The notes beneath the pieces were generated by a model. It searched no databases. It saw nothing but the letters and a program-made list of their open reading frames with translations, and was not told the DNA's origin. Source: a virus. Taken from it: a stretch of 64,000 bases of DNA. The stretch lies in the IMG/VR virus record IMGVR_UViG_3300013131_000021; one strand, written 5' to 3'. A program made the position numbers and the translations under genes. Positions 282 through 17,069 of the stretch are shown in pieces (the stretch's first letter is position 1; the number at the start of each line of letters is the position of its first letter).

Positions 282-1295
282 ATGAAGAATCTTTTTAAGA
301 AGGCGGCGGCATTCACAGACATACATTTTGGTCTAAAGAGTGGTAGTAGGACACACAATCAAGATTGCGAAGATTTTGTAGATTGGTTTTGTGAAACTGC
401 TAAAACTGAAGGTTGCGAAACTGCTATTTTTCTCGGCGACTGGCATCACAATCGTTCTACTACTGATGTCAGTACCATGAACTACACGGTGTCAAATTTA
501 GAAACACTTAATAATTCATTCAATCGTGTTTTTCTCATCATGGGGAATCATGATGAGTATTACAAGGATAAACGAGAAATACACAGCTTAGAATTCGCTA
601 GATTGTTTCCAAATATAACTGTGGTTAATCAGACCTTCACAGAAGGCGATGTTACTATTATGCCTTGGCTAATAGGAGAAGAATGGAAAGACATACCTCG
701 CATCAAAAGTCGCTACATGTTTGGACATCTTGAATTACCGCATTTTTATATGAATGCTATGGTGCAGATGCCCGACCACGGGCAATTACAAACCACACAT
801 TTTACTAACCAAGAATATGTATTCACAGGACATTTTCACAAACGTCAAACTAAAGGCAATATAATTTATATAGGCAATGCTTTTCCTCACAATTATGCAG
901 ACTCGGGCGACGACGATAGAGGTATGATGATACTAGAGTGGGGCAAAGAGCCTGTATACAAAACGTGGCCTGGACAACCAATTTATAGGACTTACAAGTT
1001 AAGCCAAATTATAGATGCTCCTGAAAAATTACTGCGTGAAAAAATGCATTGTAGAGTATCTATTGATTTGCCTATTACATTTGAAGAAGCTAATTTTATC
1101 AAAGAACAGTTTATTCCGCAATATAATTTGCGTGAATTAATGTTAATTCCAGAAAAAGTTGAAGTAGATTCTACACACGTACCTATCGATATAAATTTCG
1201 AAAGTGTAGATACGATAGTAATGAATCAAATTAATTCTATCGATAGCGACAGCTATGATAAAAAAATATTATTAGAAATATACAATAATCTATGA
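282..1295 (+). CDS. gp47: Recombination nuclease subunit, Mre11/SbcD-like metallophosphoesterase
   Basis: Motifs DIHFG, FLGDWHH, GNHD, GHLE, GHFH; adjacent to gp46. Confidence 0.95.
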   Translation: MKNLFKKAAAFTDIHFGLKSGSRTHNQDCEDFVDWFCETAKTEGCETAIFLGDWHHNRSTTDVSTMNYTVSNLETLNNSFNRVFLIMGNHDEYYKDKREIHSLEFARLFPNITVVNQTFTEGDVTIMPWLIGEEWKDIPRIKSRYMFGHLELPHFYMNAMVQMPDHGQLQTTHFTNQEYVFTGHFHKRQTKGNIIYIGNAFPHNYADSGDDDRGMMILEWGKEPVYKTWPGQPIYRTYKLSQIIDAPEKLLREKMHCRVSIDLPITFEEANFIKEQFIPQYNLRELMLIPEKVEVDSTHVPIDINFESVDTIVMNQINSIDSDSYDKKILLEIYNNL

Positions 1296-3073
1296 CGATT
1301 AAAATAAAAAATCTCACAGTTAAAAACTTTATGAGCGTGGGCAATCAAACCCAGGCTATCGATTTTGATCGTGGACAGCTGACCTTGGTCTTAGGTGAAA
1401 ATCTAGATCTAGGAGGTGATGACTCTGGTGCCCGAAATGGAACAGGCAAAACTACAATCATCAACGGACTGAGCTACGCTATCTACGGTCAAGCCCTAAC
1501 TAACATCAAACGTGATAATCTTATCAATAAGATCAACGGAAAAAACATGTTAGTCGCTGTTAGTTTTGAGAAGGATGGGGTTAGTTATCATATCGAACGA
1601 GGTAGAAAACCTAACTTACTAAAGTTTAGTATAGATGGTCAAGAACAAGAATTAAAAGATCTAGACGAAAGCCAGGGAGATTCTAGAGAAACGCAAAAAG
1701 CTATCGAAACGGTTTTTCAAATGAGCCACGACATGTTCAAACATATTGTAGCTCTTAATACTTACACTGAACCATTCCTTAGTCAAAAGTCTGCAGATCA
1801 AAGAGCGATTATCGAACAACTGCTGGGTATAACTATGTTATCCGAAAAAGCGGAACTTCTCAAAGAATCGATAAGAATATCAAAAGATACCATCTCGACT
1901 GAAAACACTAGAATTGAAACAGTGAAAGCATCAAACGAACGCATACAACAAAGCATCGAAACATTAGAGCGTAAACAGAAATTATGGGAAGAGCAGAAAG
2001 AAACTTCTCTAGAGAATATTCGAAAAAGCATAGATAGACTCAATGATATTGACATTGATCATGAAGTAGAAAATCAAAAATCTCTAGCCGAATGGAACAA
2101 ATCTAAAAAAGAAATCGATAATCTTAATTCTTTAATGGCTAAACAAACTAGTGCGCTAGAAAAAGAACAAAAGGTATTAGACAAATTAGAAAAAGAGTTG
2201 ATAAGTTTAGGTAATCATAAATGTCATACCTGCGGACAAGATTTACATGATAACAAACATTATGAACTATTATCAACTAAAGCACAACAACTAGAAGAAA
2301 GTAAAGGTTCAATTAGCGAACACCTAGAAGAATTATCTACTCTTAACGAAGCATTGGCATTATTAGGAGATTTAGGTGATTGTCCCAAAGTGCATTACGA
2401 TAATTTAGAACAGGCATTAAATCATAAGAATACATTAAGTGGTCTTGAAAAAGATCTAACTATCAAAGAATCAGAAGAAAACCCGTATGATGAACAGATA
2501 TTAGAATTAAAGACTACCGCTGTACAAGAAATCGATTGGAATTATCTAAATGAACTAGTTAAAATCAAAGAGCATCAAGAATTTTTATACAAACTATTAA
2601 CTAACAAAGATAGTTTTGTACGTAAACGCATCATCGATCAGAATCTTGCGTTCTTGAATCAACGATTAACACACTATCTAGATCGAATTGGACTACCTCA
2701 CATTGTAGAATTTCAAAACGATCTATCTGTGATAATCACACAGCTAGGTCAGGATTTAGATTTTGATAATCTAAGTCGCGGGGAAAGAAACAGATTAATA
2801 TTAAGTCTAAGTTGGGCATTTAGAGATGTATGGGAAAATTTATATCAAAACATCAATTTATTGTTTATTGACGAATTAGTAGATAGTGGCATGGATGCAA
2901 GCGGAGTTGAAAGCTCTATTGCTGTGCTTAAACGTATGACCCGTGAGAGAGAGAAAAATGTATTCTTAATTTCTCACAGAGACGACTTAACAAGTAGAGT
3001 AAATCATGTGTTAAAAGTGATTAAAGAAAACGGATTTACCAGTTATTCAACAGATATAGAAATAATATCATGA
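1292..3073 (+). CDS. gp46: Recombination ATPase subunit, Rad50/SbcC-like
   Basis: Walker A GARNGTGKTT, coiled coil with CHTC zinc hook, LSRGE signature, Walker B LFIDE, H-loop ISHR. Confidence 0.95.
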   Translation: MTIKIKNLTVKNFMSVGNQTQAIDFDRGQLTLVLGENLDLGGDDSGARNGTGKTTIINGLSYAIYGQALTNIKRDNLINKINGKNMLVAVSFEKDGVSYHIERGRKPNLLKFSIDGQEQELKDLDESQGDSRETQKAIETVFQMSHDMFKHIVALNTYTEPFLSQKSADQRAIIEQLLGITMLSEKAELLKESIRISKDTISTENTRIETVKASNERIQQSIETLERKQKLWEEQKETSLENIRKSIDRLNDIDIDHEVENQKSLAEWNKSKKEIDNLNSLMAKQTSALEKEQKVLDKLEKELISLGNHKCHTCGQDLHDNKHYELLSTKAQQLEESKGSISEHLEELSTLNEALALLGDLGDCPKVHYDNLEQALNHKNTLSGLEKDLTIKESEENPYDEQILELKTTAVQEIDWNYLNELVKIKEHQEFLYKLLTNKDSFVRKRIIDQNLAFLNQRLTHYLDRIGLPHIVEFQNDLSVIITQLGQDLDFDNLSRGERNRLILSLSWAFRDVWENLYQNINLLFIDELVDSGMDASGVESSIAVLKRMTREREKNVFLISHRDDLTSRVNHVLKVIKENGFTSYSTDIEIIS

Positions 3074-3300
3074 GCAGCGAATCCCACAATAAGATGATAG
3101 AAGCTTTTCAACAATACTTCAAATATCAAGATAGATTTGAATATAATGGGGCTGACGATTCTGGTGCGAAGGCCAGGGTTTGGTTATCAGAAATTCGTAA
3201 ACAGGCAAGTATTAGGCGAATAGAAATTCAAGTAAGAAGGCAAGAAGCAAAAAAAGCCAGAAATGGTCGCAATGGAAGGCCTCCTAAAATAACTAAATGA
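3070..3300 (+). CDS. Hypothetical basic protein (76 aa)
   Basis: ATGA overlap with the gp46 stop; abuts the next ORF; Arg/Lys-rich C-terminus. Confidence 0.7.
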   Translation: MSSESHNKMIEAFQQYFKYQDRFEYNGADDSGAKARVWLSEIRKQASIRRIEIQVRRQEAKKARNGRNGRPPKITK

Positions 3301-3735
3301 GTGCTGTGGACGTATCAAAATCGACCAATAAACGAAATACCAGAAGGCTACATTGGCTTTGTATATCTCATCACCAATCTACAAACCGGGCAAAAGTACA
3401 TAGGCAAGAAATTAGCACAATTTAAACGTACTAAACCACCACTCAAAGGCAAAAAACTTAAACGTAGAAGCACAGTAGAAAGCGATTGGCGCGATTACTG
3501 GGGTTCTTCTGATAGGTTAAACGCAGACGTCCAAGCATTAGGTCCGGAAAATTTCACTAGAGAAATACTTTATCTTTGTAAATCCAAGGCAGAAATGTCA
3601 TATCTAGAGGCAAGAGAGCAATTTGAACGCAGGGTTTTAGAATCTGACGACTATTATAATGGCATTATAAACGTCAGAGTTGGCGGTTCAAACATACTTA
3701 GACAGCGTCTCGAAGAACATAAAAAGGCAAAATAA
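3301..3735 (+). CDS. Small GIY-YIG family nuclease (144 aa)
   Basis: GFVYLITN...KYIGKK (GIY-YIG variant), YWGSS, downstream conserved Glu (LEAREQ) and YYNG; GTG start. Confidence 0.8.
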   Translation: MLWTYQNRPINEIPEGYIGFVYLITNLQTGQKYIGKKLAQFKRTKPPLKGKKLKRRSTVESDWRDYWGSSDRLNADVQALGPENFTREILYLCKSKAEMSYLEAREQFERRVLESDDYYNGIINVRVGGSNILRQRLEEHKKAK

Positions 3736-4100
3736 CGCGGTTTTTTGGCTGGCGCAGGCCTTAATCTCATGCGCTCTAAACCTGGTCAATCGTGGTCGCA
3801 GGGACGGAATTCCATGCCGCAATGGTACTCAACTACTACCCATTTATGGATGAAGATCGCTTAAAACCTGCGATTTAGTTGTTTGAAAAGGATAAACAAA
3901 GGTAAAAAGAAGGGAGAAAACCCCTACGTATACAAAGATGTTAGCGTATGTTTGTATACCGCCGTCATATGAAGACATGGCTCGAGGTACCGGATGACCG
4001 CCTCTGCAATGCCATAACGCTAAGTGGTATTGTTCAACTCGGATAATATTTTTTTCGCCCGGCAACGGGCGAAGTGTGGCTGAACAATCTGGATAATCTT
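3736..4100 (+). ncRNA. Candidate large structured non-coding RNA (family not recognised)
   Basis: About 365 nt with no credible ORF and many stems, including long-range TCGCAGG/CCTGCGA and TTGTTCA/TGAACAA, a GCAA tetraloop and G-U pairs. Strand inferred from G-U pairs and flanking gene direction. Confidence 0.5.
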
Positions 4101-4103
4101 AAA

Positions 4104-4202
4104 TTGCGCTTCGCGCAAAAAAATTTTAGAACATCTCTAAAATTTAAAAAAGAAAAAAGTGCGTTGAGCGCAAGCGAAAACGCAAACGAGCGTAAGCTCG
4201 TT
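4104..4202. repeat. Cluster of short perfect inverted repeats (hairpins)
   Basis: TTGCGC-TTC-GCGCAA 4104-4118; AATTTTAGA-ACATC-TCTAAAATT 4122-4144; GCGTT..AACGC 4161-4183; AACGAGC-GTAA-GCTCGTT 4185-4202. Confidence 0.8.
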
Positions 4203-4209
4203 ATCACGA

Positions 4210-4219
4210 TAAATAAATA
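4210..4219 (+). promoter_or_regulatory. T4-type late promoter (TAAATA, doubled)
   Basis: GATAAATAAATAA upstream of the ORF at 4244; the same core recurs before most virion genes. Confidence 0.65.
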
Positions 4220-4243
4220 AACTGTGCATAGGAATTCCTAATA

Positions 4244-5257
4244 ATGAGAATCAACGAAATAATTTTTGAAAATACCTTGTCTGAAGGTCCTCTATTAAAC
4301 AAAGTAGGTGCTGGTATAGGCAAAGCAGTAGGAGGCACTGCCAAAGCTGTAGGAGCAGTAGCAGGTGGCGTTGCAGGAATTCCTGGAGCTATTGCCAAAG
4401 GTTTTAGAGCAGGCAAATCTACTGTAAGCGGTGCTGGAGACGAGCCTAAATCATCTGGAGGAGTCGGTGCAGGCATAGCCAAAGGGTTGGCAGGTGGCGG
4501 ATCAACTGCTGCTGGCAGTGATGCTGCGGGAGATCCGGGAGCAGAAACTGCTGCCAAGACTTTACAACAACAGGTAGATAAGCTCAGCCCAGAAACCAAA
4601 CAAGAATTATTAAAGACTTTACAGGCCAGCAGTGAAAAAGATCAAACAGCTGCAGCAAAGCCTGCTGCACAAAACCCAGATGCTGAGCCTGCTGCTAAAT
4701 CAAGTACCGCAGCAACACCGGCCACAGGAGCAGGTACAGCCACAGCAGGAACCACTGCTGCTGGTAAACCAAGGGTAGAACCAACTTTGGCAGCACCAGC
4801 TGCGGCCGCTGCATCAACTTCGGCTTCTGCACAGAAAACATCTCCTGCACAAGGTCAAGCATCTTCAGATCCTTATGAAATTATCAAAGGGCAGGTTAGA
4901 AAAGCTCAGGGAGGTACCAAACCAGTTCCTGACAATTTACTGCAGAGCATCAATACAGACATTGCTCGCATGGGTAAAGGCGACAAAGACATGGGCGCCA
5001 ATGTTGGACAGCGCATTCTTCAATTGGCCAAACAAGGATATGATGTTAAAAATGCACAGACACAGTTCATAGGTGCTTCGAAACAATTAACACAGAGTGT
5101 ATATCGTGCGATTTCTAACATGCTTAAAGAACACGGATTAGCATGGAGTGATTTAAACTTAAAAATCACACTGGTAGAAGGTGTCAGCGAATATGTGTTG
5201 ATATCTGAACTGAGACCATTAACAGAAAACAAAATCCAACTTTACAGAGTTAAATGA
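4244..5257 (+). CDS. Putative internal head/virion protein, Gly/Ala-rich (337 aa)
   Basis: N-terminus MRINEIIFENTLSEG, glycine-zipper-like GAGIGKAVGG repeats, Ala/Pro/Thr-rich linker; follows a late promoter. Confidence 0.75.
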   Translation: MRINEIIFENTLSEGPLLNKVGAGIGKAVGGTAKAVGAVAGGVAGIPGAIAKGFRAGKSTVSGAGDEPKSSGGVGAGIAKGLAGGGSTAAGSDAAGDPGAETAAKTLQQQVDKLSPETKQELLKTLQASSEKDQTAAAKPAAQNPDAEPAAKSSTAATPATGAGTATAGTTAAGKPRVEPTLAAPAAAAASTSASAQKTSPAQGQASSDPYEIIKGQVRKAQGGTKPVPDNLLQSINTDIARMGKGDKDMGANVGQRILQLAKQGYDVKNAQTQFIGASKQLTQSVYRAISNMLKEHGLAWSDLNLKITLVEGVSEYVLISELRPLTENKIQLYRVK

Positions 5258-16564: not shown

Positions 16565-16660
16565 ATACATTGTCTATATATGGACCGCATATTGCGGACT
16601 TATGCTGTACCCACAGCGTAGCGGCTAGAACCCGCATTAGACTTCTAATTAAAGGAGAAA
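16562..16660 (+). promoter_or_regulatory. Late promoter followed by a four-hairpin 5' leader
   Basis: TAAATA 16562-16567; stems at 16585-16597, 16601-16620, 16621-16635, 16636-16649; AAGGAG SD. Confidence 0.6.
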
Positions 16661-16664
16661 ACAA

Positions 16665-17069
16665 ATGGGACGTCCATTAAGAAAAGATGTAAATGGTGTC
16701 GATGTCATCGGCACACCAGCCAGCAATACCGGAGTAAGAGTAGAAGCATTTTTTGGAGGCGCAGCTTACACTGATGCCACATTTAATCCAGCCACAAATT
16801 ACGCTTATATCTATAAGCAAAGAGGAGCTAAAACCTTTGTTGTGCAAAATCAGGCAGGTGCTAAATCCGAACCTCTCGTATTGCAATCTGTAATACCAGC
16901 GGCCAACGGACAGATGAGGTTAAATGGATTTATTGGAGGCAATGGATCGGCTCCAACACCTTTAGCAAAAATTACCAAGCGTGTAGCAATTGATTTCTCT
17001 GGTAATCGATACACATGGCAGCTAGTTAATGATTCAACTAGCGATTATATCGCCTTAACAGCTCTATAA
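16665..17069 (+). CDS. Virion structural protein (134 aa)
   Basis: Strong SD; first gene of the fibre module; beta-rich composition. Confidence 0.75.
   Translation: MGRPLRKDVNGVDVIGTPASNTGVRVEAFFGGAAYTDATFNPATNYAYIYKQRGAKTFVVQNQAGAKSEPLVLQSVIPAANGQMRLNGFIGGNGSAPTPLAKITKRVAIDFSGNRYTWQLVNDSTSDYIALTAL

What the first reader, a model, noticed from the sequence alone, without database searches (positions are those of the whole stretch)
3301..4100. Candidate large structured ncRNA immediately downstream of a compact GIY-YIG nuclease
Seen: the gene-dense genome leaves about 500 nt uncoded after the GIY-YIG stop (3735). The first 365 nt are almost fully pairable: GGCGCA/TGCGCT (3751-3775); long-range TCGCAGG 3796-3802 with CCTGCGA 3867-3873 enclosing two CCAT/ATGG hairpins; TTGTTT/AAACAA (3879-3899); AGGG/CCCT; GTATACAAA/TTTGTATAC (3928-3959); nested GAGG-CGG-ATGA-CCG-CCTC (3984-4004); CAATGCCA/TGGTATTG with a G-U pair (4007-4032); TTGTTCA 4030-4036 with TGAACAA 4081-4087 enclosing TTCGCCCG-GCAA-CGGGCGAA. 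GGATAAT occurs twice (4041, 4091). G-U pairs and a GNRA loop favour a plus-strand RNA. Known: small nucleases paired with structured RNAs exist (HEARO RNAs with HNH proteins, OMEGA systems). Inference: this may be an undescribed nuclease-RNA pair or a stand-alone phage RNA. The 144-aa protein has no obvious separate DNA-binding domain, unlike Seg homing endonucleases. I could not match it to group I/II introns, RNase P or tmRNA.
Basis: partly seen in the sequence, partly recalled or inferred. Interest (0 to 1): 0.82.

Follow-up and report, generated by a model that had tools for sequence, protein, structure and literature searches.

The report
Extended Polynucleobacter-1 twin-box phage RNA
The 500-base gene-free gap behind a small nuclease gene of this uncultured freshwater T4-like phage encodes a real, roughly 455-base knotted non-coding RNA. 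Its front part is the already catalogued, function-unknown Polynucleobacter-1 motif, so it is not a new nuclease-RNA system, although its uncatalogued tail carries one 7-letter word twice for a reader nobody has found.

Summary
Window 3736-4243 is non-coding, conserved and densely structured on the plus strand. The original 2010 alignment already extends into a pseudoknotted 'tail' (to about 4023). It also notes that the RNA follows a gene family like PSSM2_218, which I show is this GIY-YIG family.

Still uncatalogued:
- a second pseudoknot (3964-68/3994-98)
- a twin-box domain (4024-4118)
- a terminal domain (4160-4202) just before a late promoter

Together these make one RNA of about 455 nt, supported by compensatory changes in nearly every helix.

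The two 7-mers (4041-47 and 4091-97) are identical to each other in 138/139 and 34/35 distinct relatives, across about 15 variants. This is unexplained.

The nuclease looks like a syntenic neighbour, not a partner. Its family is widespread without the RNA, and three loci carry the RNA behind other genes, one of them a PDDEXK nuclease. No transcript data could be obtained.

This scan had already reached the same reading on at least 24 other genomes. Verdict: a real member of a known orphan RNA family, function unknown, moderate interest.

The parts
3070..3300 (+). orf76: small Arg/Lys-rich protein between the gp46-like gene and the nuclease gene
   Evidence: A profile built from it finds the same family abutting the nuclease gene in 96 of 105 relatives and in L153. 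No Pfam or PHROG family. No match in GenBank phages.
3301..3735 (+). 144-aa stand-alone GIY-YIG nuclease (SegE-type catalytic domain only)
   Evidence: Pfam PF19835, E 6.7e-37, covering residues 3-123. phrog_447. 44 % identical to P-SSM2 PSSM2_218. Strong codon periodicity.
3747..4202 (+). whole structured RNA (domains A to D), about 455 nt
   Evidence: One continuous block of covarying helices in 104 diverse relatives. Starts 12 nt after the nuclease stop codon. No plus-strand promoter-like site in between.
3747..3884 (+). domain A: Rfam Polynucleobacter-1 core (RF01718)
   Evidence: cmscan 98.8 bits, cut-off 37, E 4e-20, full model 1-141. One copy in the 195-kb record. Helices A1, A5 and A6 are 92-99 % canonical with compensatory changes.
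3911..4023 (+). domain B: hairpins P0 and P1, helices P3/P4 and two pseudoknots (3941-47/4017-23 and 3964-68/3994-98)
   Evidence: the count of structure pairs on A1: covariation score 0.433 vs at most 0.125 when slid, 0/500 shuffles as high, pseudoknot helices 98.9 % and 99.5 % paired. P0, P1, P3/P4 and the first pseudoknot are already drawn as the 'tail' in the 2010 alignment.
4035..4047 (+). twin box 1 (7-mer GGATAAT at 4041-4047, with its CAA-CTC lead)
   Evidence: Identical to box 2 in 138/139 and 34/35 distinct relatives, about 15 variants. The 13-mer occurs nowhere else in the 195-kb record.
4054..4073 (+). hairpin P5, followed by conserved GTGTGRC (4074-4080)
   Evidence: 93 % canonical, with compensatory changes in 4 pairs. 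4075-4080 can pair with 3964-69: 96 % canonical, one-sided changes only. The type II relatives have the Watson-Crick version of this pairing.
4085..4097 (+). twin box 2 (7-mer GGATAAT at 4091-4097, with its CAA-TCT lead)
   Evidence: As for box 1.
4104..4118 (+). hairpin P6 with conserved CTTCG loop region
   Evidence: Stem covaries: 84 % canonical, 6 pairs with changes on both sides. Absent in some relatives.
4160..4202 (+). domain D: stem around conserved GAGCGNNAGCGAA, then terminal hairpin 4185-91/4196-4202
   Evidence: fold_alignment A2: 13 of 13 predicted pairs keep pairing through changes on both sides. In many relatives a T-rich run follows the last hairpin.
4209..4215 (+). ATAAATA, T4-type late-promoter-like box for the gene starting at 4244
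   Evidence: 71-96 % conserved columns. TATAAATA-like words sit at the same place in relatives. The promoter function is inferred from T4 knowledge.

Best explanation
Window 3747-4202 is one plus-strand, multi-domain structured RNA of about 455 nt. It is the full-length form of the orphan Polynucleobacter-1 RNA family, carried by a clade of uncultured, mostly giant, T4-like freshwater phages.

Shown:
- The fold: five nested helices of the Rfam core, a doubly pseudoknotted middle, a twin-box domain and a terminal two-hairpin domain.
- The strand.
- The fixed position, 11-60 nt behind the stop codon of the upstream gene.
- The concerted identity of the two 7-nt boxes.

Inferred:
- The RNA is made by read-through of the early/middle operon gp47-gp46-orf76-nuclease and ends at the last hairpin, just before the late promoter of the next gene.
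- It acts in trans as an RNA of its own, not as the nuclease's guide. Its rigid knotted body displays two identical single-stranded 7-mers to a two-site or dimeric sequence-specific reader, encoded elsewhere in the phage or in the host.
- Strand 3964-69 may toggle between the inner pseudoknot partner (3994-98) and the GTGTGRC word of the twin-box domain.
- The GIY-YIG gene is a long-resident syntenic neighbour.
For: Family and position:
- RF01718 at 98.8 bits.
- The same RNA, once per record and directly after the nuclease gene, in 44/50 and 9/30 close relatives, and with nucleases of only 50-60 % identity.
- The 2010 alignment already contains the tail and its pseudoknot.

Fold and strand:
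- Covariation on A1: 29 pairs changed on both sides, 0/500 shuffles as high.
- 104-sequence alignment: A1 99, A6 92, A5 94, P1 90, both pseudoknots 97.5 and 99, P5 93, D2 98 % canonical.
- Domain D: 13/13 pairs compensated.
- No codon periodicity in the gap.
- The plus strand is favoured by G-U cells.

Twin boxes:
- Identical in 138/139 and 34/35 relatives.
- At least 40 changes on the nuclease tree.
- L059 and L064, whose nucleases are 98.7 % identical, differ in both boxes in step.

Independence from the nuclease:
- Melnitz, S-SRM01 and phiM12 have the nuclease but no RNA.
- There are 542 phage records with the nuclease, and no phage record with the RNA.
- L153, L188 and L141 have the RNA behind other genes.
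- No nuclease residue tracks box type.
Against: - The 5' and 3' ends, and even expression, are inferred.
- The linkage to the nuclease is very tight: 94/97 and 43/44 loci. All these phages share one gene order, so synteny and function cannot be separated.
- In one exception the replacement gene is again a nuclease (PDDEXK_15), which also fits a nuclease-linked role.
- No reader of the boxes was found. There is no complementary word within -435 to +965 nt or in the 195-kb record.
- The toggle helix has only one-sided changes within type I.
Confidence: 0.6

Rival explanations
1. Nuclease-RNA system. The RNA is the partner of the upstream nuclease, as guide, targeting scaffold or antitoxin-like inhibitor. 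This would compensate for the nuclease's missing DNA-binding domain, with the twin boxes addressing the nucleic acid to be cut or spared.
For: - The nuclease is a catalytic domain only: PF19835 covers residues 3-123 of 144.
- The RNA starts 12 nt after its stop codon.
- Linkage holds in 94/97 and 43/44 loci, down to 50 % protein identity.
- In L153 the gene in that place is another nuclease, PF24608.
- The boxes evolve fast, as specificity determinants do.
Against: - The same nuclease family is found in 542 cultured phage records, and the three examined have no RNA.
- L188 and L141 carry the RNA behind ORFs with no nuclease signature.
- No nuclease column tracks box type: best normalised mutual information is 0.54, at the level of phylogenetic signal.
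- Nucleases 98.7 % identical go with different boxes.
- All linkage lies within one conserved gene order.
- From knowledge: domain-only GIY-YIG enzymes such as T4 endonuclease II work without RNA.
Confidence: 0.15
2. Replication-origin module. The transcript, or its AT-rich stretch 4119-4159 and the small GC hairpins of 4104-4202, primes or marks the initiation of DNA replication, as at T4 oriF and oriG. The twin boxes would act as DNA-level repeats.
For: - Position at the end of the recombination/replication gene block.
- An A/T-rich linker lies between structured domains.
- Strict identity of the boxes even for A/G changes would fit DNA-DNA or RNA-DNA pairing better than RNA-RNA pairing, which tolerates wobble (inference).
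- An earlier scan note proposes this.
Against: - Helices of domains C and D covary like RNA hairpins, and the G-U pattern elsewhere points to a plus-strand RNA.
- There are only two repeats and no initiator gene.
- The linker is poorly conserved and variable in length.
- Nothing here tests replication.
Confidence: 0.1
3. Cis-acting 3' element. It is a long structured 3' UTR that stabilises or processes the early operon's mRNA and insulates it from the late gene downstream, with no function in trans.
For: - No promoter-like site lies between the nuclease stop and the RNA.
- The RNA always abuts the stop codon of an upstream gene, whatever that gene is.
- The last hairpin is terminator-like in many relatives and is followed by the late promoter.
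Against: - Some 455 nt with two pseudoknots and over 60 covarying pairs is far more than a 3' stabiliser or terminator needs.
- The concerted twin boxes call for a sequence-specific reader.
- The nuclease homologues of other phages do without it.
Confidence: 0.1

Closest known systems
Polynucleobacter-1 RNA motif (Rfam RF01718; Weinberg et al. 2010, Genome Biol 11:R31, PMC2864571)
   Same: - Window 3747-3884 matches the whole 141-position model at 98.8 bits.
- The published alignment's 'tail', with hairpins and a loop-to-downstream pseudoknot, equals my P0, P1, P3/P4 and the 3941-47/4017-23 pseudoknot.
- The RNA follows the stop codon of a PSSM2_218-like gene, as published.
   Different: - The paper found it in no purified phage, and saw it in one Polynucleobacter genome plus environmental reads. 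Here it lies in T4-like phage contigs.
- The upstream gene is now identified as a GIY-YIG nuclease.
- The second pseudoknot, the twin-box domain and domain D lie outside the published motif.
- A sister form with a different 5' half (type II, ACATGAA boxes) has no Rfam family.
HEARO / OMEGA RNAs with IscB, IsrB or TnpB nucleases
   Same: A large structured RNA encoded next to a compact nuclease gene, in mobile or viral DNA.
   Different: - From knowledge: those nucleases are RuvC/HNH proteins that never occur without their RNA, and the RNA carries a guide at one end.
- Here the nuclease is GIY-YIG and mostly occurs without the RNA.
- The RNA occurs without the nuclease.
- No guide-like end or target was found.
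T4 gene 60 translational bypass cassette with the MobA homing endonuclease
   Same: Two matching triplets each followed by a stop-like TRA, about 50 nt apart, with a hairpin in between, next to a phage endonuclease gene.
   Different: - No reading frame runs into the first box. Open length upstream has a median of 15 codons and a minimum of 2, the same as control frames.
- Spacing is 47-68 nt in all three phases.
- The second box is also followed by the stop-like triplet.
Large phage-associated orphan RNAs (GOLLD, ROOL)
   Same: Hundreds of nucleotides, multiply pseudoknotted, phage-borne, function unknown.
   Different: No Rfam match to them, even at E up to 10 in 3600-4350. This RNA is smaller and tied to one genomic position rather than to tRNA clusters (the latter from knowledge).

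Membership tests
Polynucleobacter-1 RNA (RF01718) | Covariance-model score above the curated gathering score over the full model | tested here: met
   98.8 bits vs 37, model positions 1-141 of 141, E 4e-20.
Polynucleobacter-1 RNA (RF01718) | Core helices kept through compensatory changes in relatives | tested here: met
   A1 99 %, A6 92 %, A5 94 % canonical, with 4-5 pairs each changed on both sides in 104 sequences.
Polynucleobacter-1 RNA (RF01718) | 3' 'tail' with hairpins and a loop-to-downstream pseudoknot, as in the original alignment | tested here: met
   The SS_cons and SS_cons_1 lines of the 2010 file correspond to P0, P1, P3/P4 and 3941-47/4017-23. That pseudoknot is 98.9 % paired, with 3 pairs compensated.
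Polynucleobacter-1 RNA (RF01718) | Lies just downstream of a GOS11034 / PSSM2_218-like gene | tested here: met
   The window nuclease is 44 % identical to PSSM2_218, E 2e-26. The RNA starts 12 nt after its stop codon.
RNA-guided nuclease systems (OMEGA / HEARO type) | Nuclease and RNA strictly co-occur in both directions | tested here: not met
   Nuclease without RNA in Melnitz, S-SRM01 and phiM12. RNA without this nuclease in L153, L188 and L141.
RNA-guided nuclease systems (OMEGA / HEARO type) | A variable guide segment that matches a target | tested here: inconclusive
   The only fast-varying single-stranded words are the twin 7-mers. No complementary site was found locally or in the 195-kb record, which is about 55 % of the genome.
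Free-standing GIY-YIG homing endonucleases (Seg type) | N-terminal GIY-YIG catalytic domain | tested here: met
   PF19835 SegE_GIY-YIG, E 6.7e-37. Weak TIGR01453 match to the N-terminal half only.
Free-standing GIY-YIG homing endonucleases (Seg type) | C-terminal DNA-binding domain | tested here: not met
   The protein is 144 aa and the catalytic domain covers residues 3-123. No other family matches.
Free-standing GIY-YIG homing endonucleases (Seg type) | Sporadic presence among close relatives | tested here: not met
   Present in 94/97 and 43/44 RNA-bearing loci, and diverging to 50 % identity along with gp46. One replacement by a PDDEXK nuclease.
Programmed translational bypass (T4 gene 60 type) | An open reading frame that delivers ribosomes to the take-off codon | tested here: not met
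   Open length upstream of box 1 has a median of 15 and a minimum of 2 codons, no different from the other frames. No codon periodicity.

The most novel reading that the evidence does not exclude
The twin boxes are the working end of a new kind of sequence-addressed RNA device. A knotted scaffold presents one freely re-programmable 7-nt word twice, possibly gated by the 3964-69 toggle, to align or mark two copies of a matching nucleic acid. Strict identity, even for A/G changes, hints at pairing with DNA. One use would be self/non-self discrimination between co-infecting phages, carried out together with whichever nuclease is encoded upstream.
Probability: 0.08. Interest if true: 0.85.

Novelty: new member of a known kind. 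Interest (0 to 1): 0.42.

Why it matters
- **Natural setting.** It gives an orphan Rfam family (16 sequences in 2010, one bacterial genome, no phage) its natural context: a clade of uncultured T4-like freshwater phages.
- **Neighbour identified.** The family's long-noted upstream neighbour turns out to be a GIY-YIG nuclease.
- **Size.** The catalogued 141-nt model is only the first third of an RNA of about 455 nt.
- **Twin boxes.** The two 7-mers stay identical through dozens of changes. This is an unusual, cleanly testable signature of an unknown sequence-specific reader.
- **What it is not.** It is not, on present evidence, a new RNA-guided nuclease.

Tried and rejected
- **Coding gap.** Rejected: no codon periodicity.
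- **Gene-60-like ribosome hop.** The boxes read as sense codon plus TAA/TGA. Rejected: no frame reaches box 1, and the spacing occurs in all three phases.
- **Boxes as a general promoter.** Rejected: the 13-mer occurs only here in 195 kb, and variants such as CATGAA lack -10 features.
- **Third copy at 3890 (GGATAAA).** Not conserved.
- **Complementary partner of the boxes.** None within -435 to +965 nt of the nuclease stop, none in the 195-kb record beyond chance, none in the freshwater-2 RNA.
- **Protein reader encoded next door.** No column of the nuclease or of orf76 cleanly tracks box type. For orf76 this is inconclusive because near-identical pairs are few.
- **CsrA-type GGA sites.** Rejected: GGA changes to GCA, AGA or ACA in both boxes together.
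- **T4 endonuclease II-like identity of the protein.** No PDB sequence match at E up to 1.
- **Other Rfam families for 3885-4243.** Only noise, e.g. cow-rumen-2 at 18.5 bits.
- **tRNA or tmRNA.** None.
- **Bacterial copies.** The twin-box pattern hits only 12 MAG contigs, probably binned phage DNA.
- **Cultured phage with the RNA.** None.
- **Structure-aware MAFFT.** Not installed.
- **Not run.** Structure prediction, fold search and complex prediction; I judged them not decisive for the RNA.

Full report
**What is there.** The window looks like part of a T4-like phage. It carries a gp47-like phosphoesterase (282-1295), a gp46-like SMC/AAA protein (1292-3073), a 76-aa basic ORF (3070-3300), a 144-aa GIY-YIG protein (3301-3735; Pfam PF19835, E 6.7e-37), a gap of about 500 nt, two plus-strand genes, and a baseplate-hub gene on the minus strand. 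The window is bases 96000-159999 of a 195-kb IMG/VR virus record estimated at 55 % complete.

The gap is non-coding. Across 44 relatives, column entropy by codon position is 0.29/0.19/0.78 in the nuclease gene but flat in every 90-nt slice of the gap. Nearly all relatives keep an ORF-free gap of 450-550 nt there.

**It hits a known family.** Rfam cmscan places Polynucleobacter-1 RNA (RF01718) at 3747-3884 on the plus strand: 98.8 bits against a cut-off of 37, over the full model. Nothing else in 3600-4350 rises above noise, and there are no tRNAs.

The family was described by Weinberg et al. 2010 (PMC2864571). Their supplement says the RNAs mostly lie downstream of genes of family GOS11034, possibly homologous to PSSM2_218 of cyanophage P-SSM2. 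It also says the 3' half is not always detected and that none was seen in a purified phage.

I fetched PSSM2_218, which is annotated 'NAD synthetase'. It is 44 % identical to the window's GIY-YIG protein (E 2e-26).

The original Stockholm file shows that the authors' motif runs well beyond the 141 positions kept in Rfam. It includes a 'tail' with further hairpins and a predicted pseudoknot from a hairpin loop to a downstream strand. These correspond to my P0, P1, P3/P4 and the 3941-47/4017-23 helix. Window 3747 to about 4023 is therefore already described.

**The fold, tested.** On a 40-sequence alignment of 3905-4125 (A1), the structure I derived by eye scores as follows:
- 87 % paired cells, against 37-47 % when the partners are slid.
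- 29 pairs with changes on both sides.
- Covariation score 0.433 against at most 0.125 when slid.
- None of 500 shuffles as high.
- The two pseudoknot helices are the cleanest: 3941-47/4017-23 is 98.9 % paired, and 3964-68/3994-98 is 99.5 % paired (CG 20/UA 20, GC 20/AU 16, UA 35/GC 5 at three positions).

On 104 diverse full-length relatives, almost every helix of the whole element holds. Percent canonical pairs: A1 99, A6 92, A5 94, P1 90, P3 90, P4 97, P5 93, P6 84, D2 98.

Domain D (4160-4202) was checked separately with fold_alignment. All 13 predicted pairs keep pairing through changes on both sides.

G-U cells make the reverse strand fit clearly worse (A5 68 %, P1 77 %, P3 75 %), so the RNA strand is plus.

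The element runs from 3747 to the hairpin ending at 4202. It is followed by a conserved ATAAATA (4209-15), which I read, from T4 knowledge, as the late promoter of the gene at 4244. No plus-strand promoter-like site lies between the nuclease stop and the RNA, so read-through from the nuclease operon is the likely source. This is inferred; I could get no transcript data.

**The uncatalogued part and the twin boxes.** Beyond the 2010 motif lie three pieces:
- the second pseudoknot;
- a domain of two similar units, each with a helix end, GTG(TG)AC, 6-8 nt, AYYC, a 7-mer, a short spacer and a hairpin;
- an A-rich linker followed by domain D.

The two 7-mers (4041-47 and 4091-97, GGATAAT here) vary among relatives as R-S-A-T-R-A-W, yet are the same as each other:
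- 55 of 56 loci found through the protein.
- 138 of 139 distinct loci overall, with about 15 variants.
- 34 of 35 loci found independently through the 5' domain, using a pattern that did not force equality.

On a tree of the nuclease the word changes at least 40 times. Two phages whose nucleases are 98.7 % identical (L059, L064) differ in both boxes in step. They also differ by a compensatory swap in the first pseudoknot.

I could not find what reads the boxes:
- No complementary word nearby or in the 195-kb record.
- No third copy.
- No use as a general promoter.
- No reading frame that would make them gene-60-like take-off and landing sites.
- No residue of the nuclease or of orf76 follows them.

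The identity holds even for A/G changes, which RNA-RNA wobble pairing would tolerate. This is worth noting, but I cannot explain it.

A second unexplained point concerns strand 3964-69. It pairs with 3994-98 with full covariation. It is also 96 % complementary, through one-sided changes only, to the conserved GTGTGRC at 4075-80. The type II relatives have a Watson-Crick version of that long-range helix. A conformational toggle is possible but not shown.

**Linkage to the nuclease.**

From the protein side:
- RF01718 lies once per record, directly after the nuclease gene, in 44 of 50 and 9 of 30 of the closest viral contigs. Most of the misses among the first 50 are cut contigs.
- Most of those in the second batch are one subgroup with ACATGAA-type boxes. 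It has a different 5' half with no Rfam family, but the same twin-box domain (type II).

From the RNA side:
- A pattern for the twin-box domain found 119 further viral loci. Of 97 with at least 800 nt upstream, 94 have the nuclease gene there, at 50-96 % identity.
- A pattern for the 5' domain gave 49 more true hits, and 43 of 44 with enough flank have the nuclease. All inspected 'exceptions' for the twin-box domain turned out to have it with slightly different flanks.

The linkage is therefore tight, but all these phages share one gene order: gp47, gp46, orf76, nuclease, RNA, variable late genes, hub. The linkage is not independent evidence of joint function.

Evidence against a partnership:
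- The nuclease family is present in 542 GenBank phage records, mostly cyanophages.
- Melnitz (64 % identity), S-SRM01 and phiM12 have no RNA behind it.
- No GenBank phage record has the RNA at all.
- In L153 the GIY-YIG gene is replaced by a PF24608 PDDEXK nuclease and a 71-aa ORF, with the RNA kept.
- In L188 a type II RNA follows a 159-aa ORF of no known family, after tail-fibre-like genes.
- In L141 a type I RNA follows a 175-aa unknown ORF.

I therefore read the nuclease as a long-resident neighbour. That one replacement is again a nuclease keeps a nuclease-linked role alive at low odds.

**How it most likely works.**

Shown: a conserved, knotted, plus-strand RNA of about 455 nt at the 3' end of an early/middle operon, with two identical, fast-changing, apparently single-stranded words.

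Inferred, at moderate to low confidence: it is released or persists as an RNA of its own and works in trans, offering the two words to a two-site or dimeric sequence-specific reader.

Rivals: a nuclease partner (0.15), an RNA-primed origin (0.1) and a purely cis-acting 3' element (0.1). Each has a stated refuting experiment.

**Relation to earlier work in this scan.** After my own analysis I looked up earlier notes. The same RNA had been flagged and followed up on at least 24 other genomes with the same verdict: extended Polynucleobacter-1 'twin-box' RNA, nuclease not the partner, reader unknown. One note favours an origin and another argues against it. My results agree with the majority reading. 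They add four things:
- the PSSM2_218 identity check;
- the L188 and L141 contexts;
- the orf76 family;
- the rejection of the bypass idea.

**Verdict.** A real feature and a member of a known but unexplained RNA family, not a new nuclease-RNA system. Its uncatalogued two thirds and the twin-box constraint are worth a specialist's attention, hence moderate interest.

Noticed in passing
window 16583-16667 (+): Second Rfam hit in the window: freshwater-2 RNA (RF02980), 74 bits against a cut-off of 49.9. It lies between a GATAAATA late-promoter-like word (16560-67) and the start codon at 16666, so it is probably a 5' leader of a late structural gene.
   Followed up: partly
window 3070-3300 (+) and the same position in relatives: A 76-aa Arg/Lys-rich ORF sits between gp46 and the nuclease gene. 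It belongs to a family found at that place in 96 of 105 RNA-bearing loci and in L153, with no Pfam or PHROG family and no match in GenBank phages. Its distribution matches the RNA's better than the nuclease's does, so it is a candidate RNA-binding protein, untested.
   Followed up: partly
L153:8216-8728 (+): In one relative the GIY-YIG gene is replaced by a PF24608 'phage putative PDDEXK endonuclease' plus a 71-aa ORF, with the orf76 homologue and the RNA kept. This is a nuclease swap at a fixed site.
   Followed up: partly
L060, L063, L070, L102, L128, L140, L159 and about 40 other loci (gap after the nuclease gene): A sister RNA ('type II', boxes ACATGAA or ACATAAT) shares the twin-box domain. 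Its 5' part of about 230 nt is different, with its own covarying helices and no Rfam family.
   Followed up: partly
window 4244-5257 and equivalents in relatives: The first gene after the RNA is hypervariable among close relatives, at 161 to 707 aa. DNA similarity to the window usually ends at about 4114 or 4220, so the RNA's 3' border is a recombination boundary.
   Followed up: no
L009 and L012 (about 3720-3790 of each locus); L079: Some members carry an extra hairpin of 40-60 nt inserted between the 3' strands of P4 and P3. This is a variable expansion segment of the kind seen in structured RNAs.
   Followed up: no
L204-L215 (genome contigs): The twin-box pattern occurs in 12 contigs of metagenome-assembled 'bacterial' genomes: Crocinitomicaceae, Flavobacteriales, two Polynucleobacter bins, a Bifidobacterium bin and Neomarinimicrobiota. 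These are most likely phage contigs binned with bacteria. The Polynucleobacter bins may hint at a host.
   Followed up: no
L188:1-13282: A type II RNA lies at the end of a block of large Ig-like, DUF285 and laminin-G proteins and a Gp77-like adaptor, with no gp46, gp47 or GIY-YIG within 13.8 kb. This is a different genomic context for the RNA.
   Followed up: partly
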